DNA from: a virus
Lineage: Duplodnaviria > Heunggongvirae > Uroviricota > Caudoviricetes
Length of the DNA stretch: 64,000 bases
Virus record (IMG/VR): IMGVR_UViG_3300046820_001896
Strand: one strand, 5' to 3'
Below the pieces are notes generated by a model. The model saw nothing but the letters and a program-made list of their open reading frames with translations. It did not search any database and was not told the origin of the DNA. Of the stretch, positions 5,826-50,766 are shown one piece after another. How positions within the stretch are numbered: the first letter of the stretch is position 1; each line of letters opens with the position of its first letter. Position numbers and translations under genes: made by a program.

Positions 5826-6520
5826 AAGTAAATATTGGTCCATATGTAAATTGGGTTGGACCGTATCAAATCGCTGATAAAATTTTTTTCTGGGTTGAAA
5901 AATATCCAGAGGAAGAACTTGAAAATCGTTGGGATTATAAACTTCATGATAAGTTTGGCACATGGTTAGCTTCTACTTGGGTTGCAGATTTTTGCCAGTG
6001 GGTTCATAATTTCCAAAAACGAAAAGTAAAAGTAAAGATTGATTATTACGATCATTGGTCGTGTGATGCAACACTAGCACCAATCGTTTTACCATTACTT
6101 AAAAGCCTTAAAGAACACAAACATGGATCAGGTTATATTGAATTAGAAGATGTACCTGAAGCTATGCGTTTAACTAGCACAGAAGATTATGATGCTCAAT
6201 CAACATTTGAGTTTTATAATGATCCTGATTTAACGCGTCAAAATATTCAGTGTGATATTCATACTCGTTATGAATGGGTATTAGATGAAATGATTTGGGC
6301 ATTTGAACAGCTCAATGATGATAATTGGGAAGAACAATATTGGATCACACATCCAGAGATTGACTTTACTGAGTATCCAGAAGACGAAGGTAAAACTTCA
6401 AAACCGCTTCGTTGGAAAGTTAAAGGTGAATGTGATTGGGTAGGACGTCAGAAACATCAAGATCGTATCAATAATGGACTGCGTTTATTTGGTAAGTATT
6501 TTCAAACTTTATGGGATTAA
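5822..6520 (+). CDS. hypothetical protein (232 aa), Trp-rich
   Basis: ORF. Confidence 0.5.
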   Translation: MKVNIGPYVNWVGPYQIADKIFFWVEKYPEEELENRWDYKLHDKFGTWLASTWVADFCQWVHNFQKRKVKVKIDYYDHWSCDATLAPIVLPLLKSLKEHKHGSGYIELEDVPEAMRLTSTEDYDAQSTFEFYNDPDLTRQNIQCDIHTRYEWVLDEMIWAFEQLNDDNWEEQYWITHPEIDFTEYPEDEGKTSKPLRWKVKGECDWVGRQKHQDRINNGLRLFGKYFQTLWD

Positions 6521-6708
6521 TTATGTTAAAACTTTTATTCGTTGTTGCAATTGTTGTTATCATTATTGCATGTGGTCCAATCGCAACTATTCTATCGCTA
6601 AACACACTGTTTAATCTTGCAATTCCTATTACATTTGATACATGGATCTCTGCATTTTGGTTAGCAGCAGTGGTTGGTGGAACAATCAGTTATTCAAAGA
6701 GCAAATAA
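6511..6708 (+). CDS. small hydrophobic membrane protein (65 aa)
   Basis: Two predicted TM segments. Confidence 0.35.
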   Translation: MGLIMLKLLFVVAIVVIIIACGPIATILSLNTLFNLAIPITFDTWISAFWLAAVVGGTISYSKSK

Positions 6709-7043
6709 TGGATCTACTAATTGGTATAGTAACAGGAGTTATATTAACTCTTATTGTGTTAAATATTCTTGCTAAAGCTGTTGATGAAATTAGAAATAAA
6801 CAACTCGACAAGAAACTAGAAGAAGGGTTACAAAAGCTTAGAGAAGTTGTAATTCCTAGTCGCATCGAAGTAGTCAATGGCATGTTGTTTTTGTACAACA
6901 AAGAAAATGGCGAATTCATAGCACAAGGTAAAAACTTCATTGAGTTAAACGATAATGCAAAAGCTCGTTATCCTGAGAAACTATTTAATGTACCTCAAAA
7001 CGAGATTGATGCAGTAACTAAAGGAATATCAATAAAGGTATGA
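6708..7043 (+). CDS. membrane-anchored protein (111 aa), start revised to MDLLIGIV
   Basis: TAATG overlap with the upstream gene; N-terminal TM helix. Confidence 0.4.
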   Translation: MDLLIGIVTGVILTLIVLNILAKAVDEIRNKQLDKKLEEGLQKLREVVIPSRIEVVNGMLFLYNKENGEFIAQGKNFIELNDNAKARYPEKLFNVPQNEIDAVTKGISIKV

Positions 7044-7315
7044 TTAACGATAATAAATTTTATACGATAGTTGTAGCTATTACTATTTTACTTGGTGGAT
7101 GCATTGCATGGGGAATTATTTCAAGTAATAATCGTGCAGAAGCTGTTAAGTTGGCTTTAGAAAAAGGTCAAAATCCATTATATGTTAAGTGTTCAATGAA
7201 TACTACAACAACAGAAGAGTGCCAATCTATGATTATGGCTATGTCACTCTCAGGTCAATTTAAGGACGCCTCAGCTCCTATTTCAGTCTCACCAGCAAGT
7301 TACCCTAAAAAGTAA
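7040..7315 (+). CDS. small membrane/secreted protein (91 aa)
   Basis: N-terminal hydrophobic segment. Confidence 0.4.
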   Translation: MINDNKFYTIVVAITILLGGCIAWGIISSNNRAEAVKLALEKGQNPLYVKCSMNTTTTEECQSMIMAMSLSGQFKDASAPISVSPASYPKK

Positions 7316-7323
7316 TATAAATA
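7316..7323 (+). promoter_or_regulatory. T4-type late promoter TATAAATA
   Basis: Exact TATAAATA 24 nt upstream of the PAAR gene ATG. Confidence 0.55.
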
Positions 7324-7346: not shown

Positions 7347-7673
7347 ATGCCAGGAATTGCTAGAGTTGGTGTTGACAAAGCCGGTGGAGTAGTCACCGGT
7401 AATTTAGCTCCCACAGTTTTCGTAAATGGTTCACCTATCGTAGTGATAGGTGCAACTATTGCAGGTCACGGACTTGCTCCTCACGCTTCTCCAACTATGG
7501 TTGAAGGAGCTGTTGACGTGTTTGCGAATGGTATAGGTATATGTAGAACTGGCGATTTGGCATCGTGCGGTCATGCTATTTCAGGTTCAGATAATGTATT
7601 AACAGGATTTTACCCAAATCCGGGACCTACACGATTTGGTATTTCGAAATTTGGTGTGGAGAAACAAGGATAA
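7347..7673 (+). CDS. PAAR-repeat protein (gp5.4-like spike tip)
   Basis: 108 aa. Three PAAR-like repeats (VGD.AGG...T.N.SP.V...GA..AGHG.APH.S). Confidence 0.6.
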   Translation: MPGIARVGVDKAGGVVTGNLAPTVFVNGSPIVVIGATIAGHGLAPHASPTMVEGAVDVFANGIGICRTGDLASCGHAISGSDNVLTGFYPNPGPTRFGISKFGVEKQG

Positions 7674-7674
7674 T

Positions 7675-8094
7675 ATGGCATTAAAATATGCAGATAACGT
7701 TGGATCACAATTATTTGATCCTATTGGAGAAACAGATACTTTTGTAGTAGTAGAATCTGTTACATCATTTCCAGCAAATATATCACCAACTGATTTTGCT
7801 GTAGCAACTATTGCTAACGATGATAATAGTTTAACAGAATCGATTAAAATTACTTTTATTGATCGTCCTACTAGAACATTGACAATAGAACGAGGATACG
7901 ATGATTCGACACCGCGCAATTGGCCAAAAGGATCTAAATTAGAAATTCGTATTTCATCTGGTTTTTTCAGAGCATTTGAAGAACAGGTAAATACATATAC
8001 CGACGATGCAATTTCTGCATTAGAAACTTCATCGAATACAACAACAGAAGCTAAATCTAAAGCAGCATTTGCAGTTGCTTTTGTATTAAGCTAA
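7675..8094 (+). CDS. hypothetical protein (139 aa), start revised to MALKYADN
   Basis: ORF; the upstream extension overlaps the PAAR gene. Confidence 0.45.
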   Translation: MALKYADNVGSQLFDPIGETDTFVVVESVTSFPANISPTDFAVATIANDDNSLTESIKITFIDRPTRTLTIERGYDDSTPRNWPKGSKLEIRISSGFFRAFEEQVNTYTDDAISALETSSNTTTEAKSKAAFAVAFVLS

Positions 8095-8103
8095 GGAGAT
8101 TAA

Positions 8104-8733
8104 ATGTCTTTTGATTTTGAATTTACGCAAGAAAAACTTGCACACGTTATTCCTAACGCAAAGTATGGAGTAGAAACATGGCACAAAGAATTGGTAGAAC
8201 TTTTACCAGTTTTTGAAATTACTACAGTTGGTCGTGTTGCTGCATTTGTTGCGCAAACTGCTCATGAATCTGGTGGTTATACAGCACTAAAAGAAAACTT
8301 AAACTATAGTGCTGAAGGTTTGCATAAACTATGGCCAAATCGTTTCCCAACGGTTGAGTCAGCTATGCCTTATAATCGTAATCCGCAAGCTATCGCTAAT
8401 AAAGTTTACTCATCACGTATGGGTAACGGAGATGAACATAGCGGTGAAGGTTGGTTGTATTGCGGTCGTGGTCTACTACAATTGACTGGTAAAGCAAACT
8501 ATTCTGCATTCGCACAATACGCAGGTATGTCAGTAGAAGATGCACCTGAATATATCGAATCTCCACGCGGTGCTGTACACTCAGCATGTTGGTTCTGGTA
8601 TTCAAATGACTTGAATACATACGCAGATGCTGGTGATTTCACTGGTATGACTAAGCGTATCAATGGTGGTACAATCGGTTTAGACGATCGTATCAAACAT
8701 TATAATCACGCTGTAGAGATTTTCTCAGCGTAA
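8104..8733 (+). CDS. endolysin, glycoside hydrolase family 19 (chitinase-like lysozyme)
   Basis: AAFVAQTAHESGGY...GEGWLYCGRGLLQLTGKANY match GH19 catalytic motifs. No signal peptide. Confidence 0.8.
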   Translation: MSFDFEFTQEKLAHVIPNAKYGVETWHKELVELLPVFEITTVGRVAAFVAQTAHESGGYTALKENLNYSAEGLHKLWPNRFPTVESAMPYNRNPQAIANKVYSSRMGNGDEHSGEGWLYCGRGLLQLTGKANYSAFAQYAGMSVEDAPEYIESPRGAVHSACWFWYSNDLNTYADAGDFTGMTKRINGGTIGLDDRIKHYNHAVEIFSA

Positions 8734-8768: not shown

Positions 8769-9002
8769 ATGAAAAAATTAATGTTAGCATTAGCGATTAC
8801 GTTTGGTATGACTAGTGTTTATGCTGCTGATCCAAAACCAGCACCGAAATTAGATTGCACAAAACCAGCAAATAAGAGTAAAGGTCCATGTCTTAAAGCA
8901 CCTGAGTCAAAAACAAAGGTAGAGATTAAGAAACCTGAGAAAAAGAAAGCTGCACCTGCTGCAACACAAAAGAAAGCTGCAGAAAATAACGCTAAACAAT
9001 AA
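8769..9002 (+). CDS. small secreted Lys-rich protein (77 aa)
   Basis: Signal peptide MKKLMLALAITFGMTSVYA. Confidence 0.45.
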   Translation: MKKLMLALAITFGMTSVYAADPKPAPKLDCTKPANKSKGPCLKAPESKTKVEIKKPEKKKAAPAATQKKAAENNAKQ

Positions 9003-9061
9003 GCGTTGCAGAGAACAAGCTTTTTATAGATATCTCTATAAGGGCCGGGGGAAATAATAAA

Positions 9062-9086
9062 GGGGACGAAAGTCCCCTTTTTTTAT
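9062..9086. terminator. bidirectional rho-independent terminator
   Basis: GGGGAC-GAAA-GTCCCC flanked by an A-run and a T-run, between convergent genes. Confidence 0.65.
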
Positions 9087-9098
9087 GCTTACTACTAT

Positions 9099-9653
9099 TT
9101 AAATAGTAATCGGTACAACTAACCATATACCTTGTGTTAGTAATAGAAGACCTATTACACCAACACCGAGGCTTGCATAATACATTCGCATATTGACAGC
9201 GATGATAGATGCGGATAATAAAACAATGGCGAGTTGGAATAACATTCCAGAGAATGTCAACCATGGACCATGTTTACGTGCTTCTTCACGTTCAGCTTCG
9301 TATGCTCTTGCTTTAGCTAAAAGTTCTTTCTTACCTTCACCAGATACTGGATCAGATTCGTATCTTTCGATCTTTGCTTTTAGTTTATCGGCTCTCGCAT
9401 GATCGCCTCTGTCTTTAGCTGTTTCGTATTCTGCTTCAGCTAATGATTGTTTCAATGATTTAGCTTGAAAGAATCCATACGTATTAGACGCTTTTAACAA
9501 ATTAGTCATCGCTGATCCGCTAAAGCTATTAGCAAAATATGTGTTTAATGCTAAGAACAATGCCATAATGACAATCACTAAACCAGCTTTGTCTTTAATT
9601 TGTGCTTCACGTTCGCTACGTGTCAATGGTTTCTTTTCTACAACTTCAGTCAT
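9099..9653 (-). CDS. membrane protein (184 aa, DUF4337-like topology)
   Basis: One TM segment near the N-terminus, a charged coiled-coil middle, and two C-terminal TM segments. Confidence 0.5.
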   Translation of the reverse strand: MTEVVEKKPLTRSEREAQIKDKAGLVIVIMALFLALNTYFANSFSGSAMTNLLKASNTYGFFQAKSLKQSLAEAEYETAKDRGDHARADKLKAKIERYESDPVSGEGKKELLAKARAYEAEREEARKHGPWLTFSGMLFQLAIVLLSASIIAVNMRMYYASLGVGVIGLLLLTQGIWLVVPITI

Positions 9654-9663: not shown

Positions 9664-10158
9664 TTATTTTCCTGCTAATGGGTTATCCAAAGCTTTCTGA
9701 ATCTTATTATCTATCTCTTTACGTACGTTACGGATTTCACGATCTACTTCTTTTTGAGCTTCTGTTGCTTCACGTGCAGATTGTTTAGCTGAACGTTCTA
9801 CTTGTTCAACAACTCCTTCTAAACGACGGATATCATTCTTAAGATCATTCTTGATATCACGTGTGTAGTCATTTGTCTTTGAGCTGTTTTCTTCGATGAC
9901 AGCTAACTTTTTATGCACTTCAGTCAAATCTGGTGTAACATACTCAGCAATCTTTTTCTTCATGCTTTGATAGTCTTTATATACTTCGAATACGCCGTAT
10001 AAACCACCAAGTGTTGATGATACGATTGTTGCTGCAATCATCAATTTAGCTGGAGTAAATTCATAACCACCAATACTAATTACAGTATTAGCACTCATGT
10101 ATTTTTCTTTAGCATCTGCTAAATCGTCTATCTTTTTGTTTAAGTTTTTATCTGACAT
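9664..10158 (-). CDS. coiled-coil membrane protein (164 aa)
   Basis: TM segment IAATIVSSTLGGLYGVF plus a long charged helix. Confidence 0.5.
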   Translation of the reverse strand: MSDKNLNKKIDDLADAKEKYMSANTVISIGGYEFTPAKLMIAATIVSSTLGGLYGVFEVYKDYQSMKKKIAEYVTPDLTEVHKKLAVIEENSSKTNDYTRDIKNDLKNDIRRLEGVVEQVERSAKQSAREATEAQKEVDREIRNVRKEIDNKIQKALDNPLAGK

Positions 10159-10348
10159 TTTCTTCCCTTATTTCCACACTATATGTGTGCTTTTCTTTGT
10201 TGAACTAGATTTAGCAACTGGTTTTACAGGTGCTTTTCGTTTTTGTGGTGATTGAGCCTTAGTACAATTCAATTCGTAAAGCGTATAAAGGGATAGTGCT
10301 AAGGATATCACTGAAATTACATAAGCTACAAATGGCATATAATCCATG

Positions 10349-12292
10349 TCAATCCTTTCTGTTATATTGTGAATCAACCATATCATAGTGCACTTTATCT
10401 GAAGGACCAAATAGTCCCATACTTGCACGACGATTATCAATAGTCTTTTGATTGTTGTATACTGTAAATGGTTTGTAACCTGCCACATCTGGCATTTTTA
10501 CTTGATAAGCATCAAATCCTGGAGTAAAACCCATTGCTTGGATAACTACGTTTTGAATTTGCTTTTGCTGTTCCATATCAGCAGCTTTACCCATGTTTCC
10601 AGCTAAATTTTTACCATCCTCAACTGCTTTAGCTTTTGCTGCTGCTTCACGTCTTGCTTGAAGTTCTTGGCGTGCAGTTGGTTTTGGACTATCTGAAGTT
10701 TTACTATTATTTGTTGATGCAGTTGTTGTAGATCCACCAGAAGATGCTTGTGTATTTGATGGAGCATTTTCTTTAGGTTCTTCTTTTTTGGCTGGTGCAG
10801 GTGCTGTAGCGACTGACGTAACAGAAGTTGGTGAAGATGTGCTCGTAGAACTAACTGAAGGTGTTAAACTAACAGCAGTAGTCGCTGCTGCCGCAGGAGA
10901 CGCAGATGTAGATGTTGATGTAACAACGTTATTAACAACTGGATCTGATATCACCGCTACAGGAGTTGATGATGTATTTGTATTAGATGCTACAACTACA
11001 GTTTCGGCAACAGTAGTTGTTGTCGTAGTAGTAGGTGTGTTTTGTCTTTGTAATGCTTGTTGAGTAGCATACGCTTCACCATAATTTGGGCAACGAGTAG
11101 AATACAAACCGCTTATTGTACATTGTTGACTAAAATATGCTTCTTGATATCCTGGACAATCTGTAGCATATAACGCATTGATAGAACATTGCTGTGCTTT
11201 GTAAGCTTGTTGATAACCACTACACGTTGTAGAATATAATGGATTTAATGAACATTGTAATTCTAAATAAGCTGTCGCATAACCTGGACAGTTCACAGAA
11301 TATAGTGTATTCAATGAACATTGTTGCTCGAAGTATGCTTGTTGATAACCACTACATGTTGTAGAATATAATGGATTAATAGAGCATTGTTGTTGTAAAT
11401 AAGCAGCTTGATAACCTGGACATTGTTGACTATACAATGGATTTGTAGAGCATTGTTGTGTTAAGTGTGCAGCTGCATATCCTGGACAAGATGGATCAAA
11501 TAATGCACTTATTGTACATTGTTGAGCAGTGTAAGCAACTTGATATCCTGGACATGTTGGTGATGATAATGGATTGATGATACACATGTCAACTGGACCT
11601 GTACCATTAGGTGCTTGCCAACTAAAAATACTTGCACTTCCAGGCGTAATGTTTAAACCTCGGCCGTGATAGTATTGATAATACTCACCATTTGCCAAGT
11701 TACCAGACATACCTGAAGTAACTGCATTCCATTGTACCATGGCACCAGCAATTCGTGTATCAACTAAACCAGCAGAGTTGATTTTAATCTCAAAACTATT
11801 ACCGCCTTGTGATGAACAACATTGACTTAAATTATACCAACCATATGTCATACTATTACCTTCACGCAGGTAATATTGGTTTTGGCCATTCCAAGAATAT
11901 AAATCTGTGTGTATACCAAAAATAGAGTAATTGTAACGAGGATCTGTTGTTGTTCTTAAATCAACACCTGTACAACATAATCCATAAGCACCGCTTTGCA
12001 TTGGATCTTGGAACGTTACAACGCCATTAGTCATTGCCCATGAATTATTGAACACTCTACCAAAAAATGGAAAATCAAAACCTAATGGAACATTGCGCCA
12101 ATCGTCATCAGCTGCAGTAATATTAACTGCATTTGGATTTGTGCGAATATTTTGTAAAGGTAAAGCATTAGCGCCTGTTCCAACTGTTATCGACAATCCA
12201 GGAGGAGCACCAGGAATTTGGATCGTAACAAGTTCAGCACGTGCAACAACCGTGCTTACTAATAATAGTAAGGACACAAGTAAGCGCTTCAT
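10349..12292 (-). CDS. secreted repeat protein: N-terminal globular domain, then eight ~20-aa Cys repeats (CPGYQxAYxxQQCSxNPLYS), a Thr/Ser linker, and a C-terminal domain
   Basis: 647 aa. Signal peptide MKRLLVSLLLLVSTVVARA. Eight tandem repeats with two Cys each. Roughly 120 aa of low-complexity T/S/A/P sequence. Confidence 0.6.
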   Translation of the reverse strand: MKRLLVSLLLLVSTVVARAELVTIQIPGAPPGLSITVGTGANALPLQNIRTNPNAVNITAADDDWRNVPLGFDFPFFGRVFNNSWAMTNGVVTFQDPMQSGAYGLCCTGVDLRTTTDPRYNYSIFGIHTDLYSWNGQNQYYLREGNSMTYGWYNLSQCCSSQGGNSFEIKINSAGLVDTRIAGAMVQWNAVTSGMSGNLANGEYYQYYHGRGLNITPGSASIFSWQAPNGTGPVDMCIINPLSSPTCPGYQVAYTAQQCTISALFDPSCPGYAAAHLTQQCSTNPLYSQQCPGYQAAYLQQQCSINPLYSTTCSGYQQAYFEQQCSLNTLYSVNCPGYATAYLELQCSLNPLYSTTCSGYQQAYKAQQCSINALYATDCPGYQEAYFSQQCTISGLYSTRCPNYGEAYATQQALQRQNTPTTTTTTTVAETVVVASNTNTSSTPVAVISDPVVNNVVTSTSTSASPAAAATTAVSLTPSVSSTSTSSPTSVTSVATAPAPAKKEEPKENAPSNTQASSGGSTTTASTNNSKTSDSPKPTARQELQARREAAAKAKAVEDGKNLAGNMGKAADMEQQKQIQNVVIQAMGFTPGFDAYQVKMPDVAGYKPFTVYNNQKTIDNRRASMGLFGPSDKVHYDMVDSQYNRKD

Positions 12293-12294
12293 GC

Positions 12295-12768
12295 TTACTC
12301 TTTACTTTTTACTTTTTGTGGCTTGCGATCTGGATCTGCTTCCCAGATTTGTTTAGCCTGTTCACCGATTTTGCCATCTGCTGGACATGGTGTACCAGCA
12401 TTCATCATAGCTGTGAATACACGTTCATCTTGGCATAAAGTTGATACAGCTGCAACTTTCATACCCATATCGTATAATGAACGAGCTAATTTTAAGCGTT
12501 CGCAGTTCTTATCGGTAACACTACCGCCAAAAGAAATGCCCAACACTTGAGTTTGAGCAGCGCCTGAATATCCTACTGCACAGACGTCACTATTGATAAC
12601 TGTAATTGCTGGTGCAACTGCAGTTGGAGGAGGAGATTTTACTGTTGTTGTGCTATTTGAAGTAGAATCTGTTGTGGATCTACTTGTCGAGTCGGTAACA
12701 ATTGGTTGAGCAATTGTTAATGATGTAGTCATAACAAAAAGCACCGTTGCGGCGATCTTTTTGTACAT
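12295..12768 (-). CDS. secreted Ser/Thr-rich protein (158 aa), start revised to MYKKIAAT
   Basis: Signal peptide, S/T-rich stretch, Cys-containing C-terminal domain. Confidence 0.5.
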   Translation of the reverse strand: MYKKIAATVLFVMTTSLTIAQPIVTDSTSRSTTDSTSNSTTTVKSPPPTAVAPAITVINSDVCAVGYSGAAQTQVLGISFGGSVTDKNCERLKLARSLYDMGMKVAAVSTLCQDERVFTAMMNAGTPCPADGKIGEQAKQIWEADPDRKPQKVKSKE

Positions 12769-12834
12769 GGTTTTTCCTGTTTTAGTTATTATAATGAAAC
12801 CAGTGGCATTTTTTGCCACCATGACACTTATTGT

Positions 12835-12846
12835 TATTTATAAATA
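12835..12846. promoter_or_regulatory. back-to-back late promoters (TATTTATAAATA): TATAAATA on both strands
   Basis: Plus-strand TATAAATA at 12839-12846 is upstream of 12854. Its reverse complement at 12835-12842 is upstream of the minus-strand operon starting at 12768. Confidence 0.5.
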
Positions 12847-38423: not shown

Positions 38424-39713
38424 ATGACAAATAAAGTTTGTGGTGTAAATGCCGCTTTAGATGAAGCAAAAGCAGGAATTAATTCTTTAAAAGATAAAAT
38501 TTCTGGTGGATTAGACTCGATTGGAGATTTAGGTGGTTTAGCAACTACTATTAAAAATAAACTTGCTGAGGTAAATGTACCTCAACTTCCAACAATAAAT
38601 CTTCAAGCAGAATTAGCTAATTTACCTAAATTAACTCCTGAAGAATATGCAGCCAAAGTAGCTGAATTAAAAAAAGCTTTTGGAGATGCAGTTCCAAATT
38701 TAGATAATATTATTTCTAAAATTCCTAAACCAGCAGGCGTGGATGGAGTTGGCCAAAAAGATATTTTTGCAGATTTAAAAGCTTTAGCTGGTGATGTTGG
38801 TGCTGCTGTTAGAAAGGCACAAGAAGAACTCGCAAACTTAAGCATTGATTCTGTTGTTGCTGATGTATGTAAAGAAGTACCAAACGTAGAAGTAGTTACT
38901 ACTACTGAAACTGTTAAAATTGCTGATCCAAAAACTGGTAAAGAAACTAAAGTTGAAGTTCCTGTAACATCTCCACCAGTTGAAAAAGCAAAACCACCTA
39001 CAACACCAAAAGAAAATCCTAAAAAAGAAATACCACCTTCAGAACCTCCTGCAAAAGGTTTTACTTTTAATTTTACAAGAGAAAAATTAATTGCTGCAGG
39101 TGGAAAAGAAGCAGGACCATGGTATGATGCTATGGTAGAAATGTTGCCAAAATATAACATCACAACTCCTGAAAGAGTTGCCGCATTTATTGGTAACGTA
39201 AGAGCTGAATCTACATGGACTAAGTTGTCTGAAAATTTAAATTATGGAGCTAAGTACTTATTTGAAAGATTAAATCCTGGACGTATTCGTTTTCCAACTT
39301 ATGAGGATGCTGTTAAAGTAGAAAGAAAACCAGAACCTATTGCTAACATAATTTATATGGTTGGTCGTAAATTGCTAGATCCACAACCAGGTGATGGTTG
39401 GAAATTTAGAGGGCGTGGATTGATTGGTTTAACCTTTAAAGATGAATATTTAAGAGCTTCTAAAGCAATCTATAATGATGATAGATTGGTACAAAATCCA
39501 GATTTAGTTGCAACTGATAGAACTACAGCAATCTTAACTGCATGTTATTTCTTTAAACGCAATAATATGAATCCATGGGCAGATAAACAAGATTGGGGAA
39601 ATTGTAGAAGTATCGTTAATGCTGGTTCTCCTGGTAAAGATCCTAAAATTATTCACGGATATGAGTCTGGAGTAAAATTTCAACAAGATGCATATAACGT
39701 TCTGAAAGGTTAA
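38424..39713 (+). CDS. tail-associated lysin: coiled-coil, Pro/Lys linker, C-terminal GH19 domain
   Basis: VAAFIGNVRAESTW...GWKFRGRGLIGLTFKDEY resembles GH19. Sits between gp5 and gp25. Confidence 0.65.
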   Translation: MTNKVCGVNAALDEAKAGINSLKDKISGGLDSIGDLGGLATTIKNKLAEVNVPQLPTINLQAELANLPKLTPEEYAAKVAELKKAFGDAVPNLDNIISKIPKPAGVDGVGQKDIFADLKALAGDVGAAVRKAQEELANLSIDSVVADVCKEVPNVEVVTTTETVKIADPKTGKETKVEVPVTSPPVEKAKPPTTPKENPKKEIPPSEPPAKGFTFNFTREKLIAAGGKEAGPWYDAMVEMLPKYNITTPERVAAFIGNVRAESTWTKLSENLNYGAKYLFERLNPGRIRFPTYEDAVKVERKPEPIANIIYMVGRKLLDPQPGDGWKFRGRGLIGLTFKDEYLRASKAIYNDDRLVQNPDLVATDRTTAILTACYFFKRNNMNPWADKQDWGNCRSIVNAGSPGKDPKIIHGYESGVKFQQDAYNVLKG

Positions 39714-44409: not shown

Positions 44410-47400
44410 ATGTCACTGAAGATTTTTTCACAAGCTCCTTACAACGATGACTACGATGAAACGAAGAAATATCTTCGTATGTTGTTTCGTCCAGGAGTTT
44501 CATTACAGGTACGAGAGTTAAATCAGCTACAAACTTATCTGCAAACTCAAATTCAGCGTTTAGGTTTACATTTATTTAAAGAAGGCTCAATGGTCATTCC
44601 AGGTCAAACTGCGATTGACACAAAAATTGTATATTTAAAAATTCAACCTGAAACAAACGGCGTTGAAATTAGTACTATTCTTGCAGATTTGGTTGGTAAG
44701 ACTATTACCGGTGCTAGCGGTGTACAAGCTCAGGTTCTTACATACGCTGCAGAAGAAGATACAGATCCTATTACATTATTCGTGCGTTATGTTGCATCTT
44801 CTGATGATGAAGAAACAAAAACATTTTCTGCCGAAGAATTATTAACTACTACTATCGATAGTGAAGAATACACATTACAAATTCTTCCATCGACTGATAC
44901 TCCAGTTGGTTTTGGTTCTATTGCATCTATCGAAGCTGGTGTTTATTTTATTAAGAGTCAATTTGTACAAGTTGATTCTGCTACAATCATTCTTTCTAAA
45001 TATAGCAATACACCGACATATCGAGTTGGTTTATTGGCAACAGAAAACATTGTAACATCTAATTCTGATGCTTCACTAAATGACAACGCCAATGGTTCTC
45101 CAAATGAGAATGCTCCTGGTGCTCATCGTTACCAATTATTATTAACATTTGCAAAATTAGCAGTTGATTCAGAATTAGACGAAAACTTTATTGAATTACT
45201 TCGTATTGAAAATGGTGAACTAAAGAGTAAAGTAGAAACATCTACATATTCTGAACTTGCTAAAACATTAGCACGTCGTACATTTGACGAATCTGGTAAC
45301 TATACAGTTCGTCCATTCAAATTAGCAATTCGCGAACATCGTAATAACGATCGCGGGCAATGGCAAGCATTTACTGAATATCGTTTAGGTGACATTGTAA
45401 AGAGCGGTGATAATTATTTCACAGCTATGGAAACTGCTACGTCTGGTAGTATCGAACCAGCTACTACTTTCTCTGAAACAAATCCATATCAAATCTATTC
45501 AGATAATAACATGGATTGGAACTATACTCCACGACCATCGTTTAATCGTGGTTACAAAACACCAGAAAACGGTGGTTCAGAATCTTCATTTGCAGTTGCT
45601 ATTGAACCTGGTAAAGGTTATGTACAAGGTTATGAAATCGAGAAGATTGCTACTGAATTCTTAGAAGTTCCTAAGTCAAGAGAATTTGCACGCATTGATA
45701 GTGATTCAATCGATATCAAGTACGGAAACTATGTTTATGTTTCTAACGTACGTGGTGTACCTGATTGCACAACATATCCAACAATCACTTTATACGATCA
45801 ATTAACTCCATCAACAAATTCTCAAGCTTCTGGTGCAGGTAATGCGATTGGTACCGCTCGTCTTCGTGCATTCGAATATGATTCAGGTACTCCTGGTGCA
45901 TCTGCAGTTTATAAAGCATATTTGTTCGACCTTCAAATGGAAGCTGGTTATACATTTGAACGTGATGTTAAACAATTCTTTTATGATTCAGGAACAACAT
46001 TAAGCAACTTCGTTGCAGATGTTTCACAAATTTATACTACATTAAGCGGTACAGTTAGCGGATCATCTACAACTGTTACAGGCGTTGGTACAAAGTTTAC
46101 AACTGAATTAAAAGTTGGAGATTATATTCGTGTTGAAGATTCTGCTGGAGCATTAGAAGTTCGCAGAGTTACTTCAATCACAAATAACACAACACTTGCT
46201 ATTGCTTCTGCTTTTAGCGGTACAGTTACTGGTAAAACATTTCAACGTGTGATGACACAAGTGCAAGATCCAAGTTTCACTGGATTGATTTTCCCTCTTG
46301 CACAATCATTTATTCGCAAAGTTCGTGGTGGTGAAAATGATGCTACATTTGCAACATCATACACAACTACACAAAAATTCACAGGTTCTACTTCATCAGG
46401 TCAATCAACACTGACAATTTCAGTTGGTGCTGCATCTGGTGCAACAACTCTTGGTACAGAATTTAATCCTTCAGCAAATAAAAATGAATTCGTTGTAATT
46501 AATAGATCAACTGGACGTCCAGTTAATCCAACTGCAATTAATTTATTAAATAATGGCGCGGATGCACAAATTACTGGTTTAAGTCAATCTTCTTCATATA
46601 CTGTATTTGCTCCAGTTCGTAAAGCTGGCACAATTGCACAAGAAAAGAAGAAAACACTTGTAAGCAATGCAGTAAAAGACTTCACTTCTATTGGTGCAGT
46701 TCAACCATTAACATTGTCTCTTGGTAAAGCTGACGGCTATCGCATTGTTGCTATTCGCATGAAGAATAGCGGATTCACTGCATCATCTAATCCAACTGAA
46801 ACTACTGATATTACTGATTGGTACACATTTGATAATGGTCAACGTGAAACACACTATGATGTAGCTACAATCACACGTAAACCTGGATATCCAGTTCCAA
46901 AGGGTGCTGTTCGTGTAATTTTTGATTATTTCGATCACACAGCTGGTACTGCCGGTGACTACTTTACAGTAGACTCATATTCAGATATTCCATTTGAAAA
47001 TATTCCATACTTCACGCCTGCTGGTGGCATGATTGCTCTTGCTGATGTTATGGATTTCCGTCCACGTATTAATGATGTTGGTACAGGTTATAGTAGCACA
47101 GGTGCTTCTCCATCAGAGTTGCCAAAACTTGGATTTGAAACAATTGCAAGTTACTCACACTATCTTGCACGTCGCGATAAATTAGCATTAGATATCGAAG
47201 GCAGATTCTTTACAATTTCTGGTGTAGCAAGTACTGCTCCGCAAGAACCAAAAGATCCAGCTCTTGGAATGATGTTAGCTAAGTTAAATGTTTCTCCATA
47301 CACAGCTTTCCCAAGCGATGGTTCTGTTACAATTGAAACTATCGATACTAAACGTTACACAATGCGTGATATCGGTAAGTTAGATAAGCGTATCGAAAAC

Positions 47401-50400
47401 TTAGAATACTACACAGCGCTTTCATTGTTAGAAAACGAAACAAAATCTCTTGCAATTAAAGACGATGTTGGCTTAGAACGTTTCAAAAATGGTTTCATTG
47501 TCGATAATTTCAAAGGTCAAGACTTAGGTGACGTAGCTTCTATTGACTATCGTTGCTCTATCGATATGACTGCACAAGAATTACGTCCATTTTACACAAT
47601 GGATAACGTAAACCTTGTTGAAGAAAACCAGATTAATGCTGATAGAACTTCTGACGGTTACCAATTGACAGGCGATATCATCACATTGCCATATACACAC
47701 TTTAAGTTTATCACTCAACCATTTGCGTCACGCACTGAGAACGTTAACCCATTTGCGGTGTTTACATTCTTAGGTCAAATGTCATTGAATCCACCATCTG
47801 ATGATTGGTTTGAAACAGATCGTCGTCCAGATATTATTACAAACGTAGAAGGTAACTTCTCTGCTGTACAAACACAACTTGAAAAACAAGGTGTTCTTGG
47901 CACAGTGTGGAATGCATGGCAAACAACATGGACAGGTCAAACACGTAATATTGATCGCTTAGTTGTTTCACGTGGCTTCGATAGTACAAACTATGGTCTT
48001 GGCGCTGGTCGTTGGATGGATCGTCGTACATTTACTGCTGCTGAACTTCGTGCTATTGGTGGTGATGCTCCATCATTTGGTAATGGTGCTGCTGGTGCTC
48101 GTGTATTGACATTCCAAACACAAGCTACAACAATTGGACAATCACGTTCAGGTATCACAACATCTGTTGTTCCTAAGGTAGACTATGAAGTTGTTGGAGA
48201 TAAAGTTCTTCAAACTTCTGTTATTCCTTACATTCGTGCACGTGAATTATTATTTGTTTGCCGTGGTTTAAAACCTAACACTAAATTAAATCCATTCTTT
48301 GATGATGCATCTATTCAAGCATATGTAACTCCTGCTACTCGTCTTCCAATTACTCAAAATGGTTCATTAGAATTCGATACAGAAACTAATGCTGGTGCGG
48401 CAGCAAATGACATTGGTCGTCAAGTTGGTGGTAAACCAGAAGTATCATTCAACAAGGGTGATGTTGTGTATGTTAAAACGCGTGGTGGTACAACATACAA
48501 CTCACAAGTAACATCGCCAGCTCGTGGTGTTGCAGTGTTGAAAGAAAAAACTACTGACACTGGTGCAGAAGCTGTTTATGTTCTAAACGTAACTGGTACT
48601 TTCCAAGGTGGAGACGTTATCAAAGGTTCTCTATCAGGTGCTGAATATATTATTCAAGGATCTGGTTCAATTGCTACTGCAACTCAAGGTTCAAACTTAG
48701 TAACTAACTTTAACGGTAACTTAGCTGGTGTATTCTCAATTCCAAATACAGATAGCATGCGCTTCCGTACAGGTGTTCGTGAATTTAAGTTAAGCGATAG
48801 CGTAACTGGTGGTAACGATTTTACAACACAAGGTCGTGGCACATATCGTGCTCAAGGTACATTAGAAACTAAACAGCGTTCTGTTAATGCTGTGCGTAAC
48901 TCTGAAATTGTTACACGTCCTGCATCAGAAACACGTACACAAGAGATCTTCTCTCCTGAACGTATCGTACGTGATACTGGTTGGTATGACCCTCTTGCCC
49001 AAACTATTATGATTGGTTCTAAGGGCGGTGCATTCTTAACTAAAGTTGATATCTTCTTCTCTACTAAAGATGCAAACATTCCAGTTAACTTACAAATTCG
49101 TGAATCTGTAAACGGTTACCCAGGTCCAGGTATTCTACCTTTCTCTAAGGTTACATTAAACCCAGATCAAATCATAACATCTAATGATGCATCTTTAGCA
49201 ACTACATTTACATTTGAATCTCCAGTTTATGTTCAAGACGAGACTGAATACTGTATCGTTCTTCTATCTGATTCAAACAACTATCGTGTTTGGATTTCAC
49301 AACTTGGTGAAAAAAATATTGGTACAGATCGTTTCATCTCTGAACAACCATACGCAGGTGTATTGTTTAAATCACAAAACGCTTCTACATGGACTGCTAA
49401 CCAAGAACAAGATTTGAAGTTCACAGTATATCGTGCTGAGTTTAATACAAACACAGAAGGCGTGGCTACATTCACTAATGATATCCTTCCTCCTGCTGTA
49501 TTAGATGGAAATCCATTTAAGACAACACTAGATTCGTCTAAGGTTCGTGTATCACATCGTAATCACGGCATGCCAGCAGGTTCAACAGTAATCATTTCTA
49601 ACGTTGCAGATGGAGACTATAACGGTATCGTTACAACATCTACTTCTGGTCTAAACGGTGAATTCATTATTAGCAACCCAGAACCAGATTCATATGTTAT
49701 CGATACTGGTACTGATGCTGATGCAACTGGTTTTGTTGGTGGTACAGATGTGGTTGTTTCTGAGAACGTTCCAATGGATGCTGCTCAGTTAATTACTCAA
49801 TCACAAACATTCTCTGACACAACATTATCATATGAAATGTTGACAACAGATTTATCATATAATCTTGCGACTGAAGCAACTAGCGTAATTCCAAATGAAA
49901 CAGTATACTTTGGCACATCTCAACAAGTTGCTTCTGCTATTAACGAAGAAACTGCTACTCCATTAAATGGTTCAAAGTCATTGAAAGTTATTGCAAGATT
50001 GAATACAGATAATTCTGCATTATCTCCAATCATTGATACTTCACGCTTATCAGTTGCAACAATCAAAAACCGTGTTGATAATTTCACATACGCTACTAAG
50101 AACGTTGCAGGTTTAGATGATATCATCGTAGCAGATGCAATTTCTGGTTTCACTTTCGATTCTGGAAGCCCTGGTACAATCTTTGTTCCAAGTACAGCAA
50201 GATCTGCGGTGCGTTCTATCACAGTTGGAAAATATGTTTCTGTAAGTGGTACAACAAGCAATAACACAACAATTCCTGTGTTAGTCACAGCAGTTGCAGC
50301 AAATGGTTCATCAATCACGACTAATTATGCTGGATTTACAACAGAATCTCCAGCAAATACTACTATCACATTGAAAGATAATTTCATCGATGAAAGTGTA

Positions 50401-50766
50401 CCAATTGGTGGTTCTGCGACATCTAAGTACTTAACTCGTTTAATTAACTTAGAACAACCTTCAACGTTCTTGAAAGTTATGTTCGCAGCAAACATTCCTG
50501 CGGTCACTGATTCAGACATTGAAGTTTGGTACAAGTTAATCCCAACTGGTACAAACGGTGATATCTCTCAACATTCATTTGTGCGTGCTACAACTCCTCT
50601 TAAGAACGTTAAGAGAACATCTAACCCAGACGAGTTCGTAGATGTACAATACGATTTGACAGATCTTCCAGCATTTGATGGTGTTGTTGTTAAGTTAGTA
50701 TTTAAGTCTGGCAATAGTGCTCAACCTCCACGCGTTAAAGAGTTGAGAGTAATTGCTTGTGCATAA
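44410..50766 (+). CDS. giant virion structural protein (2118 aa), putative baseplate/fibre component
   Basis: Single uninterrupted ORF. Thr/Ser/Gly-rich beta composition. CBM5/12-like W..Y..GD.V.SG.NYF motif at ~aa 310. Confidence 0.6.
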   Translation: MSLKIFSQAPYNDDYDETKKYLRMLFRPGVSLQVRELNQLQTYLQTQIQRLGLHLFKEGSMVIPGQTAIDTKIVYLKIQPETNGVEISTILADLVGKTITGASGVQAQVLTYAAEEDTDPITLFVRYVASSDDEETKTFSAEELLTTTIDSEEYTLQILPSTDTPVGFGSIASIEAGVYFIKSQFVQVDSATIILSKYSNTPTYRVGLLATENIVTSNSDASLNDNANGSPNENAPGAHRYQLLLTFAKLAVDSELDENFIELLRIENGELKSKVETSTYSELAKTLARRTFDESGNYTVRPFKLAIREHRNNDRGQWQAFTEYRLGDIVKSGDNYFTAMETATSGSIEPATTFSETNPYQIYSDNNMDWNYTPRPSFNRGYKTPENGGSESSFAVAIEPGKGYVQGYEIEKIATEFLEVPKSREFARIDSDSIDIKYGNYVYVSNVRGVPDCTTYPTITLYDQLTPSTNSQASGAGNAIGTARLRAFEYDSGTPGASAVYKAYLFDLQMEAGYTFERDVKQFFYDSGTTLSNFVADVSQIYTTLSGTVSGSSTTVTGVGTKFTTELKVGDYIRVEDSAGALEVRRVTSITNNTTLAIASAFSGTVTGKTFQRVMTQVQDPSFTGLIFPLAQSFIRKVRGGENDATFATSYTTTQKFTGSTSSGQSTLTISVGAASGATTLGTEFNPSANKNEFVVINRSTGRPVNPTAINLLNNGADAQITGLSQSSSYTVFAPVRKAGTIAQEKKKTLVSNAVKDFTSIGAVQPLTLSLGKADGYRIVAIRMKNSGFTASSNPTETTDITDWYTFDNGQRETHYDVATITRKPGYPVPKGAVRVIFDYFDHTAGTAGDYFTVDSYSDIPFENIPYFTPAGGMIALADVMDFRPRINDVGTGYSSTGASPSELPKLGFETIASYSHYLARRDKLALDIEGRFFTISGVASTAPQEPKDPALGMMLAKLNVSPYTAFPSDGSVTIETIDTKRYTMRDIGKLDKRIENLEYYTALSLLENETKSLAIKDDVGLERFKNGFIVDNFKGQDLGDVASIDYRCSIDMTAQELRPFYTMDNVNLVEENQINADRTSDGYQLTGDIITLPYTHFKFITQPFASRTENVNPFAVFTFLGQMSLNPPSDDWFETDRRPDIITNVEGNFSAVQTQLEKQGVLGTVWNAWQTTWTGQTRNIDRLVVSRGFDSTNYGLGAGRWMDRRTFTAAELRAIGGDAPSFGNGAAGARVLTFQTQATTIGQSRSGITTSVVPKVDYEVVGDKVLQTSVIPYIRARELLFVCRGLKPNTKLNPFFDDASIQAYVTPATRLPITQNGSLEFDTETNAGAAANDIGRQVGGKPEVSFNKGDVVYVKTRGGTTYNSQVTSPARGVAVLKEKTTDTGAEAVYVLNVTGTFQGGDVIKGSLSGAEYIIQGSGSIATATQGSNLVTNFNGNLAGVFSIPNTDSMRFRTGVREFKLSDSVTGGNDFTTQGRGTYRAQGTLETKQRSVNAVRNSEIVTRPASETRTQEIFSPERIVRDTGWYDPLAQTIMIGSKGGAFLTKVDIFFSTKDANIPVNLQIRESVNGYPGPGILPFSKVTLNPDQIITSNDASLATTFTFESPVYVQDETEYCIVLLSDSNNYRVWISQLGEKNIGTDRFISEQPYAGVLFKSQNASTWTANQEQDLKFTVYRAEFNTNTEGVATFTNDILPPAVLDGNPFKTTLDSSKVRVSHRNHGMPAGSTVIISNVADGDYNGIVTTSTSGLNGEFIISNPEPDSYVIDTGTDADATGFVGGTDVVVSENVPMDAAQLITQSQTFSDTTLSYEMLTTDLSYNLATEATSVIPNETVYFGTSQQVASAINEETATPLNGSKSLKVIARLNTDNSALSPIIDTSRLSVATIKNRVDNFTYATKNVAGLDDIIVADAISGFTFDSGSPGTIFVPSTARSAVRSITVGKYVSVSGTTSNNTTIPVLVTAVAANGSSITTNYAGFTTESPANTTITLKDNFIDESVPIGGSATSKYLTRLINLEQPSTFLKVMFAANIPAVTDSDIEVWYKLIPTGTNGDISQHSFVRATTPLKNVKRTSNPDEFVDVQYDLTDLPAFDGVVVKLVFKSGNSAQPPRVKELRVIACA

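What the first reader, a model, noticed from the sequence alone, without database searches (positions are those of the whole stretch)
10349..12768. Two Sec-secreted proteins in a lytic T4-like genome, one with eight tandem Cys-pair repeats
The 647-aa protein has a cleavable signal peptide and a ~230-aa N-terminal domain. It then has eight copies of CPGYQxAY-xxQQCSxNPLYS (two Cys per ~20 aa), ~120 aa of Thr/Ser/Ala/Pro linker, and a C-terminal domain. Its neighbour at 12295-12768 is also signal-peptide plus S/T-rich. A divergent TATAAATA at 12835 indicates late expression. This looks like a cell-surface, periplasmic or virion-decoration module and is not expected among replication or early genes. 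Candidate roles are superinfection exclusion, receptor masking, or an adhesin exported independently of the virion.
Basis: seen in the sequence. Interest (0 to 1): 0.65.

Follow-up and report, generated by a model that had tools for sequence, protein, structure and literature searches.

The report
Conserved phage envelope module near lysis genes
The two secreted proteins are real and belong to a conserved, uncharacterised module of three or four envelope-targeted phage genes, found in thousands of freshwater and marine phages and often next to the genes that burst the host cell; its function is still untested.

Summary
ORF 10349..12292(-) encodes a 647-aa protein (p647) with five parts:
- a signal peptide;
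- a ~217-aa beta-rich head;
- eight 22-aa two-cysteine repeats;
- a ~125-aa Ser/Thr/Ala/Pro linker;
- a conserved C-terminal domain.

ORF 12295..12768(-) encodes a 157-aa protein (p157) with a signal peptide, a Ser/Thr stretch and a four-cysteine domain.

They are not a stand-alone pair. With a membrane-anchored coiled-coil protein (cc164, 9664..10158) they form a module kept in that order in every complete locus fetched. DUF4337 (9099..9653) often joins it. All 38 cc164 relatives end in NPL.

Relatives occur in other freshwater phages, and in diverged form in marine Pelagibacter podophages and the myophage Mosig. No protein matches a family of known function or a solved fold.

The module repeatedly lies beside holin, endolysin or spanin genes. 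Canonical spanins co-occur with it, so it does not replace them.

My best guess (about 0.4) is a late-made periplasmic complex, tethered to the inner membrane, that assists or regulates lysis or egress. Receptor or entry blocking is the main rival. Function is inferred from gene context only.

The parts
12835..12842 (-). T4-late-promoter-like TATAAATA, 67 nt upstream of the p157 start. It is part of the palindrome TATTTATAAATA (12835..12846), which also reads TATAAATA on the + strand.
   Evidence: The window-wide count equals chance. A (C)TAAATA motif lies at -45..-73 in 14 of 24 related loci.
12801..12821 (-). Stem-loop in the 5' UTR, between the promoter motif and the ribosome-binding site.
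   Evidence: By eye, several related loci appear to carry hairpin-like inverted repeats of different sequence at the same position in the upstream sequences (not folded or tested). Function unknown.
12295..12768 (-). p157: signal peptide (1-20), conserved Ser/Thr/Pro stretch (21-58), four-cysteine domain (59-152).
   Evidence: It matches phrog_20531 (unknown function), E 6e-16. The domain family has 1121 clusters at 50% identity. There is no PDB sequence or fold match.
12236..12292 (-). p647 signal peptide (residues 1-19, cleavage predicted after ARA).
   Evidence: Signal-peptide features are conserved while the sequence diverges in homologues.
11585..12235 (-). p647 N-terminal head (residues 20-236), beta-rich, with two invariant vicinal Cys-Cys pairs.
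11057..11584 (-). p647 stalk: eight 22-aa two-cysteine repeats (residues 237-412), each predicted as a 12-residue helix plus a 10-residue loop.
   Evidence: pLDDT exceeds 90. DNA periods of 66 and 132 bp. Copy number is 5-14 in homologues. The same repeats occur in non-T4 phages L043, L045 and L049.
10670..11056 (-). p647 low-complexity Ser/Thr/Ala/Pro/Val linker (about residues 413-541).
   Evidence: pLDDT is below 50 for residues 418-541. Measured from the last cysteine to the conserved helix, it spans 116-156 aa in homologues.
10349..10669 (-). p647 basic amphipathic helix plus conserved C-terminal domain (residues 542-647; motif FDAY..YKP..VY..Q..IDNR..MVDSQY), and the stop codon.
   Evidence: It is 27% identical over 124 aa to the C-terminus of Pelagibacter phage HTVC115P gp53 (E 2e-9). 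A weak profile match to the marine type-B proteins has E 0.014. Its type co-varies with the type of coiled-coil partner.
10168..10347 (-). Small 59-aa ORF (N-terminal transmembrane helix, basic Pro/Lys tail) filling the gap between p647 and cc164.
   Evidence: It is conserved in L002, L006 and L021 and absent or replaced in other loci. No family match.
9664..10158 (-). cc164: 37-aa N-terminal segment, one transmembrane helix (38-60), about 100-aa coiled coil, C-terminus ..ALDNPLAGK.
   Evidence: It follows p647 in every locus that extends far enough. It is 40% identical to HTVC115P gp49. All 38 of 38 family members end in NPL plus 0-4 residues.
9099..9653 (-). DUF4337 membrane protein (three predicted hydrophobic helices), last gene of the minus-strand operon.
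   Evidence: Pfam PF14235, E 1.4e-30. It is next to the module in 9 of 31 related loci.
9059..9080 (.). GC-rich hairpin with a T-run: terminator-like element between the convergent endolysin/sp77 operon and the module operon.
8104..8733 (+). Context only: GH19-type endolysin converging on the module.
   Evidence: phrog_181, E 4e-78. Pfam Glyco_hydro_19.

Best explanation
**Proposal.** p157, p647 and cc164 are the subunits of one late-expressed envelope complex. The 59-aa membrane ORF is an optional addition. DUF4337 joins the module here and in about a third of relatives.

**Shown by the sequence data.**
- p157 and p647 carry cleavable Sec signal peptides.
- Both are rich in invariant cysteines.
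- cc164 has a single transmembrane helix followed by a long coiled coil.
- The three genes are always together and in the same order.

**Inferred.**
- cc164 sits in the inner membrane with its coiled coil in the periplasm.
- Its invariant C-terminal NPL tip, the basic helix and C-terminal domain of p647, and the four-cysteine domain of p157 form the conserved core of the complex.
- The p647 head is held out on a rigid disulfide-braced repeat stalk and a ~125-aa flexible linker. It reaches towards the cell wall or outer membrane and binds a variable envelope component, probably a glycan.

**Proposed function.** The module is repeatedly encoded inside or directly beside holin, endolysin and spanin cassettes. 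I therefore propose that it acts at the lysis or egress step, as an accessory or regulator that controls when or how completely the envelope ruptures. It would work alongside the canonical holin, endolysin and spanins, not in their place.
For: **Co-inheritance.**
- The order p157, p647, cc164 is kept in all 31 related loci wherever the contig allows, while the flanking genes vary.
- The same order, with the same Cys repeats and C-terminal domain, occurs in unrelated freshwater phage contigs L043-L048 and in the marine contig L049.
- A diverged version occurs in Pelagibacter phages HTVC115P, HTVC023P, HTVC202P, Baldr and Mosig, and in the T7-like AP013540.
- The p157 domain is 55-65% identical across these phages.
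- All 38 of 38 coiled-coil partners end in NPL.
- The type of large-protein C-terminal domain co-varies with the type of partner, in 7 of 7 and 5 of 5 cases.

**Lysis linkage.**
- In L043-L048 the module is contiguous with a tail-anchored membrane protein, an Rz-like i-spanin (phrog_312), a lipobox o-spanin and a GH19 endolysin (phrog_181, E 1e-75).
- In HTVC023P the partner gene abuts a peptidase M15 endolysin.
- In Mosig a PF11351 holin lies directly upstream.
- In MW202481 a homologue of that holin (E 6e-22) and a lysozyme lie two genes downstream.
- In the window, L002 and L007/L008 a GH19 endolysin lies within 1-4 kb.
- Holin plus M15 or lysozyme is the recognised pelagiphage lysis cassette (bioRxiv 10.1101/672428).

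**Late expression.** A TATAAATA or CTAAATA motif lies upstream of p157 in the window and in 14 of 24 related loci.
Against: - There is no experimental or homology-based functional evidence. Every protein lacks a characterised family or fold match.
- Adjacency to lysis genes is not universal. In HTVC202P the M15 endolysin is about 20 kb away. In the T4-like locus L041 the neighbours are DHFR and thymidylate synthase. Most T4-like loci show no endolysin within 8 kb.
- In several phages the module also follows tail-fibre and chaperone genes. This confounds the association.
- The phages already appear to encode complete canonical lysis sets, so no missing lysis function demands this module.
- The cc164 topology is ambiguous by the positive-inside rule.
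- Co-variation of adjacent genes can reflect co-inheritance rather than physical contact.
- AlphaFold2 confidence is low for the p647 C-terminal domain and for p157.
Confidence: 0.4

Rival explanations
1. **Receptor or entry blocking.** The complex would do one of two things. It could bind and mask the phage's own receptor glycans, protecting progeny from sticking to debris. Or it could intercept incoming phage components in the periplasm, giving superinfection exclusion. The variable head would supply the specificity.
For: - The head is the variable part while the rest is conserved. This is the pattern expected of a protein that tracks variable surface structures or rival phages.
- The module directly follows tail-fibre, chaperone or Mtd-type receptor-binding genes in HTVC115P, L043-L048 and AP013540.
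- The p157 layout (signal peptide or lipobox, Ser/Thr spacer, small helical domain, and in 22% of relatives a membrane anchor) recalls Ltp-type exclusion lipoproteins. That resemblance is from my own knowledge and was not tested.
Against: - p157 and p647 have no lipobox and no outer-membrane translocation signal, and the partner is inner-membrane anchored. Surface exposure before lysis is therefore unexplained.
- The only recognisable promoter is of the late type, whereas the known T4 exclusion genes are early (my own knowledge).
- There are no matches in PADLOC.
- In HTVC023P, Mosig and L007 the module is beside lysis genes without tail-fibre genes.
Confidence: 0.2
2. **Non-canonical spanin or outer-membrane disruptor.** cc164 would be the i-spanin. 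p157 and p647 would replace the lipoprotein o-spanin and link the inner membrane to the outer membrane for the final lysis step.
For: - cc164 and its relatives have the i-spanin layout of an N-terminal transmembrane helix and a periplasmic coiled coil.
- The module occupies the T7 holin/spanin slot between the tail fibre and TerL genes in AP013540.
- A few p157 relatives combine a lipobox with a C-terminal transmembrane helix, which is a u-spanin-like topology.
Against: - Canonical i-spanin and lipobox o-spanin genes sit immediately downstream of the module in L043-L048.
- The window has its own candidates at 6705..7043 and 7040..7315.
- p157 and p647 lack any outer-membrane anchor.
- A 125-aa disordered linker is ill suited to pulling two membranes together.
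Confidence: 0.08
3. **Exported adhesin.** p647 would be folded and disulfide-bonded in the periplasm. It would be released at lysis and then act outside the cell, either decorating virions or gluing particles and cells.
For: - The head, stalk, long-linker and dock layout, together with 20 invariant cysteines, suits an extracellular protein.
- Late co-expression with lysis genes would release it together with the virions.
Against: - I know of no precedent for Sec-exported virion proteins in tailed phages.
- The membrane-anchored partner and the membrane-anchored p157 relatives argue for retention at the inner membrane.
- No similarity to structural proteins was found in PHROGs.
Confidence: 0.08
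4. **Host-physiology gene.** The module would be an auxiliary gene set that changes the infected cell's surface or nutrient capture, unrelated to lysis or exclusion.
For: - It lies in an accessory-gene region with 2OG-Fe(II) oxygenase, phosphoesterase and HNH genes.
- Sec-exported auxiliary proteins exist in T4-like cyanophages, for example PstS (my own knowledge).
Against: - No similarity to any host protein family was found.
- Apart from one 14-kb, probably phage-derived contig in a genome bin, no relatives were found in bacterial genomes.
- The promoter is of the late type.
- The three-gene architecture is strictly phage-borne across unrelated phages.
Confidence: 0.05

Closest known systems
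Two-component spanins (lambda Rz/Rz1, T7 gp18.5/18.7, T4 PseT.3/PseT.2)
   Same: - An envelope complex encoded in lysis cassettes.
- One subunit (cc164) is an inner-membrane-anchored periplasmic coiled coil with a conserved C-terminal tip.
- The partners are Sec-exported and cysteine-containing.
   Different: - No partner is a lipoprotein.
- There are three subunits rather than two.
- One subunit is a 450-1060-aa protein with a head, stalk and linker.
- Canonical spanins co-occur with the module.
Periplasmic antiholin systems (T4 holin T with antiholin RI; ICP1 TeaA with ArrA, eLife 2020, PMC7182436)
   Same: - Small exported periplasmic proteins encoded near holins that modulate lysis timing.
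- cc164 shares the N-in, single-transmembrane, periplasmic C-terminus layout of holin T.
- Mosig and MW202481 carry a PF11351-type holin, the family of TeaA, next to the module.
   Different: - No sequence or fold similarity to T, RI or ArrA.
- RI uses a signal-anchor-release domain rather than a cleavable signal peptide.
- Nothing in those systems resembles p647.
Phage exclusion or receptor-masking lipoproteins (T5 Llp, Cor of T1/phi80, Ltp of Streptococcus phage TP-J34)
   Same: - Phage-encoded Sec-exported envelope proteins.
- Ltp has a signal sequence, a Ser-rich spacer and a small helical domain, like p157.
- They are often encoded beside receptor-binding genes.
   Different: - Those are single small lipoproteins expressed early or from prophages.
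- Here p157 and p647 have no lipobox, the unit is tripartite, and the promoter is of the late type.
- The resemblance is recalled from memory, not tested.
Trimeric autotransporter and other head-stalk-anchor adhesins
   Same: The order of signal peptide, beta-rich head, repetitive rigid stalk and C-terminal docking region in p647.
   Different: - There is no beta-barrel anchor. The C-terminal domain is polar and predicted helical.
- There is no Pfam YadA-type match.
- The stalk is built of disulfide-braced helix-loop units, not a coiled coil.
PHROG 20531 and Pfam DUF4337
   Same: p157 matches phrog_20531 (E 6e-16). The fourth gene matches DUF4337 (E 1.4e-30).
   Different: Both families have no assigned function, so membership names the proteins without explaining them.

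Membership tests
Two-component spanin | i-spanin: N-terminal transmembrane helix followed by a periplasmic coiled coil | tested here: met
   cc164 has a hydrophobic helix at residues 38-60 and coiled-coil-type weak hits over residues 61-158. Relatives share the layout. Topology was not verified experimentally.
Two-component spanin | o-spanin: small outer-membrane lipoprotein with a lipobox, encoded next to or within the i-spanin gene | tested here: not met
   p157 (..SLTIA|QP) and p647 (..VARA|E) have no lipobox cysteine. No lipobox ORF adjoins cc164. The lipobox ORFs lie elsewhere: window 7040..7315 and L043 11543..11806.
Two-component spanin | It is the phage's outer-membrane disruption system (one spanin system per phage) | tested here: not met
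   An Rz-like i-spanin (phrog_312) and a lipoprotein o-spanin co-occur directly downstream of the module in L043-L048.
T4 holin T / antiholin RI lysis-inhibition pair | Sequence or profile similarity to T, RI or RIII families | tested here: not met
   No lysis-category PHROG and no Pfam holin or antiholin hit for p157, p647 or cc164.
T4 holin T / antiholin RI lysis-inhibition pair | A holin periplasmic domain bound by a small exported periplasmic protein that delays lysis | not testable with these tools
   This needs interaction and lysis-timing assays. Only the compartment and the gene neighbourhood are compatible.
Exclusion or receptor-masking lipoproteins (Llp, Cor, Ltp) | Lipoprotein signal peptide (lipobox) | tested here: not met
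   Absent from p157 and p647. Present in only a few distant p157-domain relatives, for example P0346 (LVGC) and P0271 (VLAC).
Exclusion or receptor-masking lipoproteins (Llp, Cor, Ltp) | Blocks adsorption or DNA entry of the same or related phages | not testable with these tools
   This requires plating and adsorption assays.
Carbohydrate-binding module / lectin (p647 head) | Profile or fold match to a known CBM or lectin family | tested here: inconclusive
Trimeric autotransporter adhesin | C-terminal beta-barrel membrane anchor | tested here: not met
   No Pfam anchor match. The C-terminal domain is predicted helical and is polar.
PHROG 20531 (unknown function) | Profile match of p157 | tested here: met
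   E 6.3e-16, residues 37-136 against profile positions 183-281.
Pfam DUF4337 | Profile match above the gathering score | tested here: met
   107 bits against a cut-off of 27 for ORF 9099..9653.
Known anti-phage defence proteins (PADLOC) | Profile match to a defence-system component | tested here: not met
   No hits for p157, p647, DUF4337 or the 59-aa ORF. cc164 gives only weak coiled-coil matches.

The most novel reading that the evidence does not exclude
The module would be a previously unrecognised class of phage envelope machinery. It would be a Sec-exported, disulfide-bonded complex tethered to the inner membrane, with an exchangeable head. It would either gate lysis by sensing the state of the wall or outer membrane, or be released at lysis as a periplasm-matured adhesin that masks receptors on debris or attaches to virions. 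It would be shared by podo-, sipho- and myoviruses of the most abundant aquatic bacteria.
Probability: 0.25. Interest if true: 0.8.

Novelty: new variant of a known kind. Interest (0 to 1): 0.6.

Why it matters
Lysis and egress are poorly understood in phages of streamlined planktonic bacteria such as SAR11, OM43/LD28-like methylotrophs and their freshwater relatives. These phages drive a large share of aquatic carbon turnover.

This module is widespread:
- more than 2,800 p647 homologues;
- about 1,100 p157-domain clusters at 50% identity;
- members in cultured Pelagibacter phages.

It is highly conserved in its core and has no assigned function. If it controls lysis timing, envelope rupture or the fate of progeny after lysis, it would add a new component to the holin, endolysin and spanin scheme. 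It would also give a handle on burst timing in nature.

The 22-aa two-cysteine helix-loop repeat and the four-cysteine domain also appear to be new structural units. HTVC023P, HTVC115P, Baldr and Mosig carry versions of the module, so the question can be tested directly in culture.

Tried and rejected
- **Family and sequence searches found nothing characterised.** For p647, Pfam, PHROGs, NCBIfam and PDB sequence searches gave nothing, and megablast and tblastn against 50,697 phage records also gave nothing.
- **The 'spanin substitute' idea was my working hypothesis.** I rejected it when canonical spanins were found next to the module.
- **CRP-207 gp73 is not evidence of lysis linkage.** Its 'putative lysozyme' label was dropped because the protein is the cc164 homologue and has no lysozyme domain.
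- **The DUF2730 (Mu releasin) label was not reproduced.** The label sits on the AP013540 partner protein, but Pfam does not support it (PMC9239132 was read for context).
- **No anti-phage defence match.** PADLOC gave nothing meaningful.
- **Head homology was not detected.** Profile-profile comparison of the p647 family with the marine large proteins found only a weak C-terminal match (E 0.014) and no head similarity.
- **The 'NPL' similarity is probably chance.** The NPLY in the p647 repeats resembles the NPL tip of cc164, but that repeat position is not invariant.
- **The window's own contig could not be retrieved.** The look-up of P0001 failed.
- **Bacterial genomes gave one hit only.** The scan found a single 14-kb contig in a genome bin, probably phage-derived.
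Full report
**1. What is in the sequence**

The minus strand between 12842 and 9059 carries one compact transcription unit. Its elements are, in order:
- a TATAAATA motif at 12842..12835;
- a 5' UTR hairpin;
- an AGGAAA ribosome-binding site;
- p157 (12768..12295);
- p647 (12292..10349), which starts 2 nt after the p157 stop;
- a 59-aa membrane ORF (10347..10168);
- cc164 (10158..9664);
- a DUF4337 protein (9653..9099);
- a GC-rich hairpin at 9080..9059, shared with the convergent endolysin operon.

The window is a T4-like myophage. Its gp6 baseplate wedge is 42% identical to that of Methylophilales phage Melnitz and 40% to that of Pelagibacter phage HTVC008M. gp32 and gp59 homologues lie a few kilobases away.

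**2. Check of the observation**

p647 has a textbook Sec signal peptide (MKR, then 13 hydrophobic residues, then ARA|E). It has a 217-aa head with two invariant Cys-Cys pairs. Eight exact-register 22-aa repeats with two cysteines each span residues 237-412. A ~125-aa Ser/Thr/Ala/Pro/Val stretch follows, and then a conserved C-terminal region.

AlphaFold2, run with 52 homologues, models each repeat as a 12-residue helix plus a 10-residue loop at pLDDT above 90. The head is beta-rich at moderate confidence, the linker is disordered, and the C-terminal region is low-confidence helices.

The repeats are detectable in the DNA at periods of 66 and 132 bp. Their number ranges from about 5 to 14 among 119 homologues, while the cysteines stay invariant. 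This is the behaviour of a length-adjustable stalk.

p157 starts at 12768, not at 12822. It has a signal peptide, a Ser/Thr/Pro stretch that is itself conserved, and a ~90-aa four-cysteine domain.

The TATAAATA motif is no more frequent in the window than chance predicts (8 against 7.8). However, a (C)TAAATA motif lies 45-73 nt upstream of the p157 start in 14 of 24 related loci. Late transcription is therefore plausible but not shown.

**3. It is a module, not a pair**

p647 has more than 2,800 metagenomic homologues, all unannotated. p157 saturates the search at about 8,000 homologues.

In 30 IMG/VR loci and one genome-bin contig, the order p157, p647, cc164 is invariant wherever the contig reaches. 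The flanking genes differ. DUF4337 accompanies the module in 9 of the 31 loci.

The p157 domain is 82-98% identical within this group, whereas p647 is 50-78% identical.

**4. The module extends beyond T4-like phages**

The p157 domain is 55-65% identical to proteins of Pelagibacter podophages HTVC115P, HTVC033P, HTVC023P, HTVC202P and Baldr, and of the myophage Mosig. It is more distantly related to proteins of a roseophage and of Ralstonia phage RSP15. The family has 1,121 clusters at 50% identity.

In the Pelagibacter phages examined, the following genes have a common pattern:
- First comes a large signal-peptide protein with a different head, an acidic linker and a related C-terminal region.
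- Then comes a small protein made of an N-terminal transmembrane helix and a coiled coil.

The strength of these links varies:
- p647 aligns significantly with the C-terminus of HTVC115P gp53 (27% over 124 aa, E 2e-9).
- cc164 aligns with HTVC115P gp49 (40% identity).
- The other marine large proteins ('type B') share only a motif-level, weak profile match with p647 (E 0.014).

Freshwater non-T4 contigs (L043-L048) and a Tara Oceans contig (L049) carry true p647-type proteins. These have the same CPGY..AY..QQC..NPLY repeats, with 6-17 repeat motifs.

Two regularities tie the subunits together:
- All 38 of 38 coiled-coil partners end in NPL followed by 0-4 residues.
- The two types of large-protein C-terminus pair perfectly with the two types of partner, in 7 of 7 and 5 of 5 cases.

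About a fifth of p157-domain relatives add a C-terminal transmembrane helix, and a few have a lipobox. This places the domain at a membrane surface in the periplasm.

**5. No known family or fold**

p647 matches nothing in Pfam, PHROGs, NCBIfam, PDB sequences or PADLOC.

p157 matches only phrog_20531, which has no known function. It matches nothing in the PDB, even when searched as a profile.

Fold searches also failed:
- Foldseek gave no hit at E<=0.001.

'Lectin-like' therefore remains a guess. The marine heads give only sub-threshold CBM_4_9 matches.

**6. Genomic context**

Several lineages place the module beside lysis genes:
- In L043-L048 it is followed without a gap by a tail-anchored membrane protein, an Rz-like i-spanin, a lipobox o-spanin and a GH19 endolysin.
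- In HTVC023P the partner gene abuts a peptidase M15 endolysin.
- In Mosig a PF11351 holin lies directly upstream.
- In MW202481 a homologue of that holin and a lysozyme lie two genes downstream.
- In AP013540 the module fills the slot between the tail fibre and TerL genes, where T7 keeps its holin and spanins (the T7 gene order is from my own knowledge).
- In the window, in L002 and in L007/L008 a GH19 endolysin lies within 1-4 kb.

Published work identifies PF11351 holin plus M15 or lysozyme as the pelagiphage lysis cassette (bioRxiv 10.1101/672428).

There are counter-examples:
- In HTVC202P the M15 endolysin is about 20 kb away.
- In L041 the neighbours are DHFR and ThyA.
- Most T4-like loci show no endolysin within 8 kb.

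The module also follows tail-fibre and chaperone genes in HTVC115P, L043-L048 and AP013540. Tail-fibre linkage is therefore a confounder.

**7. What the context excludes**

Canonical spanins co-occur with the module. In addition, the window has its own holin-like (6511..6708), i-spanin-like (6705..7043) and lipoprotein o-spanin-like (7040..7315) ORFs upstream of the endolysin. The module is therefore not a replacement for spanins or for the holin. I held that idea mid-way through and abandoned it.

**8. Most likely mechanism**

Shown:
- p157 and p647 carry export signals.
- The cysteines are invariant.
- The partner has a single-pass membrane anchor.
- Co-inheritance is strict.
- The core is conserved while the head is variable.
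- The module is frequently adjacent to lysis cassettes.

Inferred:
- The three proteins assemble on the periplasmic face of the inner membrane.
- cc164 provides the anchor and a spacer of variable length (74-222 aa across the family).
- The NPL tip, the p157 domain and the p647 C-terminal helix and domain form the conserved core.
- The p647 head, on its disulfide-braced stalk and long flexible linker, reaches the wall or outer membrane and binds a lineage-specific ligand.
- The complex acts at lysis or egress, as an accessory or regulator.

I put this at about 0.4. The rivals are:
- receptor or entry blocking (0.2);
- a non-canonical spanin (0.08);
- an adhesin matured in the periplasm and released at lysis (0.08);
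- a host-physiology gene (0.05).

The remaining probability is unassigned.

**9. Novelty and value**

The proteins are new families with no assigned function, and the repeat and the four-cysteine domain have no structural match. The kind of element is familiar: a phage envelope module associated with lysis genes. The tripartite architecture is not. I therefore rate it a new variant of a known kind, with a 0.25 chance that it is a genuinely new class of envelope machinery. Cultured Pelagibacter phages carry versions of it, so it is experimentally tractable.

Noticed in passing
window 6511..7315 (+): A candidate canonical lysis trio sits upstream of the endolysin. It comprises a 65-aa protein with 2-3 transmembrane helices (holin-like, 6511..6708), a transmembrane-plus-coiled-coil protein (i-spanin-like, 6705..7043) and a 91-aa lipoprotein with an LLGGC lipobox (o-spanin-like, 7040..7315) whose start overlaps the previous stop. 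A TATAAATA follows at 7316..7323. Both spanin candidates are conserved in L002.
   Followed up: partly
window 7347..8094 (+): A PAAR-motif protein (phrog_281, E 2e-16) and a tail-fibre-like protein (phrog_8469) lie between the spanin candidates and the GH19 endolysin. This is an unusual mix of tail-tip and lysis genes.
   Followed up: no
window 8769..9002 (+): A 77-aa protein with a signal peptide (not a lipobox) and a Lys/Pro-rich mature part lies directly after the endolysin. It is conserved in L002. It could be another lysis accessory, for example a cationic outer-membrane-active peptide.
   Followed up: no
window 10168..10347 (-): A 59-aa ORF with an N-terminal transmembrane helix and a basic Pro/Lys tail fills the gap between p647 and cc164. 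It is conserved in L002, L006 and L021. In L001 and L003 a small Cys-rich ORF replaces it, and other loci lack it.
   Followed up: partly
window 12801..12821 (-) and related loci: A hairpin lies in the 5' UTR of p157, between the late-promoter motif and the ribosome-binding site. By eye, several related loci appear to carry hairpin-like inverted repeats of different sequence at the same place; this was not folded or tested. If real, it would suggest a conserved RNA structure.
   Followed up: no
window 12835..12846: The palindromic TATTTATAAATA gives a TATAAATA on both strands in the 85-bp divergent intergenic region. The plus-strand copy ends only 7 nt before the ATG at 12854.
   Followed up: no
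window 9059..9080: A 9-bp GC-rich hairpin with a T-run sits between the two convergent operons (endolysin/sp77 and the module). It is a likely shared terminator.
   Followed up: no
window 38424..39713 (+): A 429-aa ORF in the baseplate gene region has BLASTP similarity to the GH19 endolysin. It may be a tail-associated wall hydrolase, in the role of T4 gp5, that uses a GH19 domain.
   Followed up: no
L036 3292..3873 (Roseobacter phage CRP-207 gp73): This gene is annotated 'putative lysozyme' in GenBank. It is actually a transmembrane coiled-coil protein ending in DNPL, the cc164 counterpart, and has no lysozyme domain in Pfam.
   Followed up: yes
L035 5374..6321 (Ralstonia phage RSP15 ORF122): The p157 four-cysteine domain also occurs in a soil Ackermannviridae phage, behind a ~200-aa Gly/Asn/Gln-rich region. 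No obvious large-protein or coiled-coil partner is annotated next to it.
   Followed up: no
L049 7091..10276 (Tara Oceans contig): A 1061-aa marine relative of p647 has 17 of the Cys-pair repeat motifs. It is followed by a 111-aa ORF matching a PagP-like lipid A acylation PHROG (E 5e-11).
   Followed up: no
window 44410..50766 (+): A 2118-aa ORF lies downstream of the baseplate genes. It was not examined.
   Followed up: no
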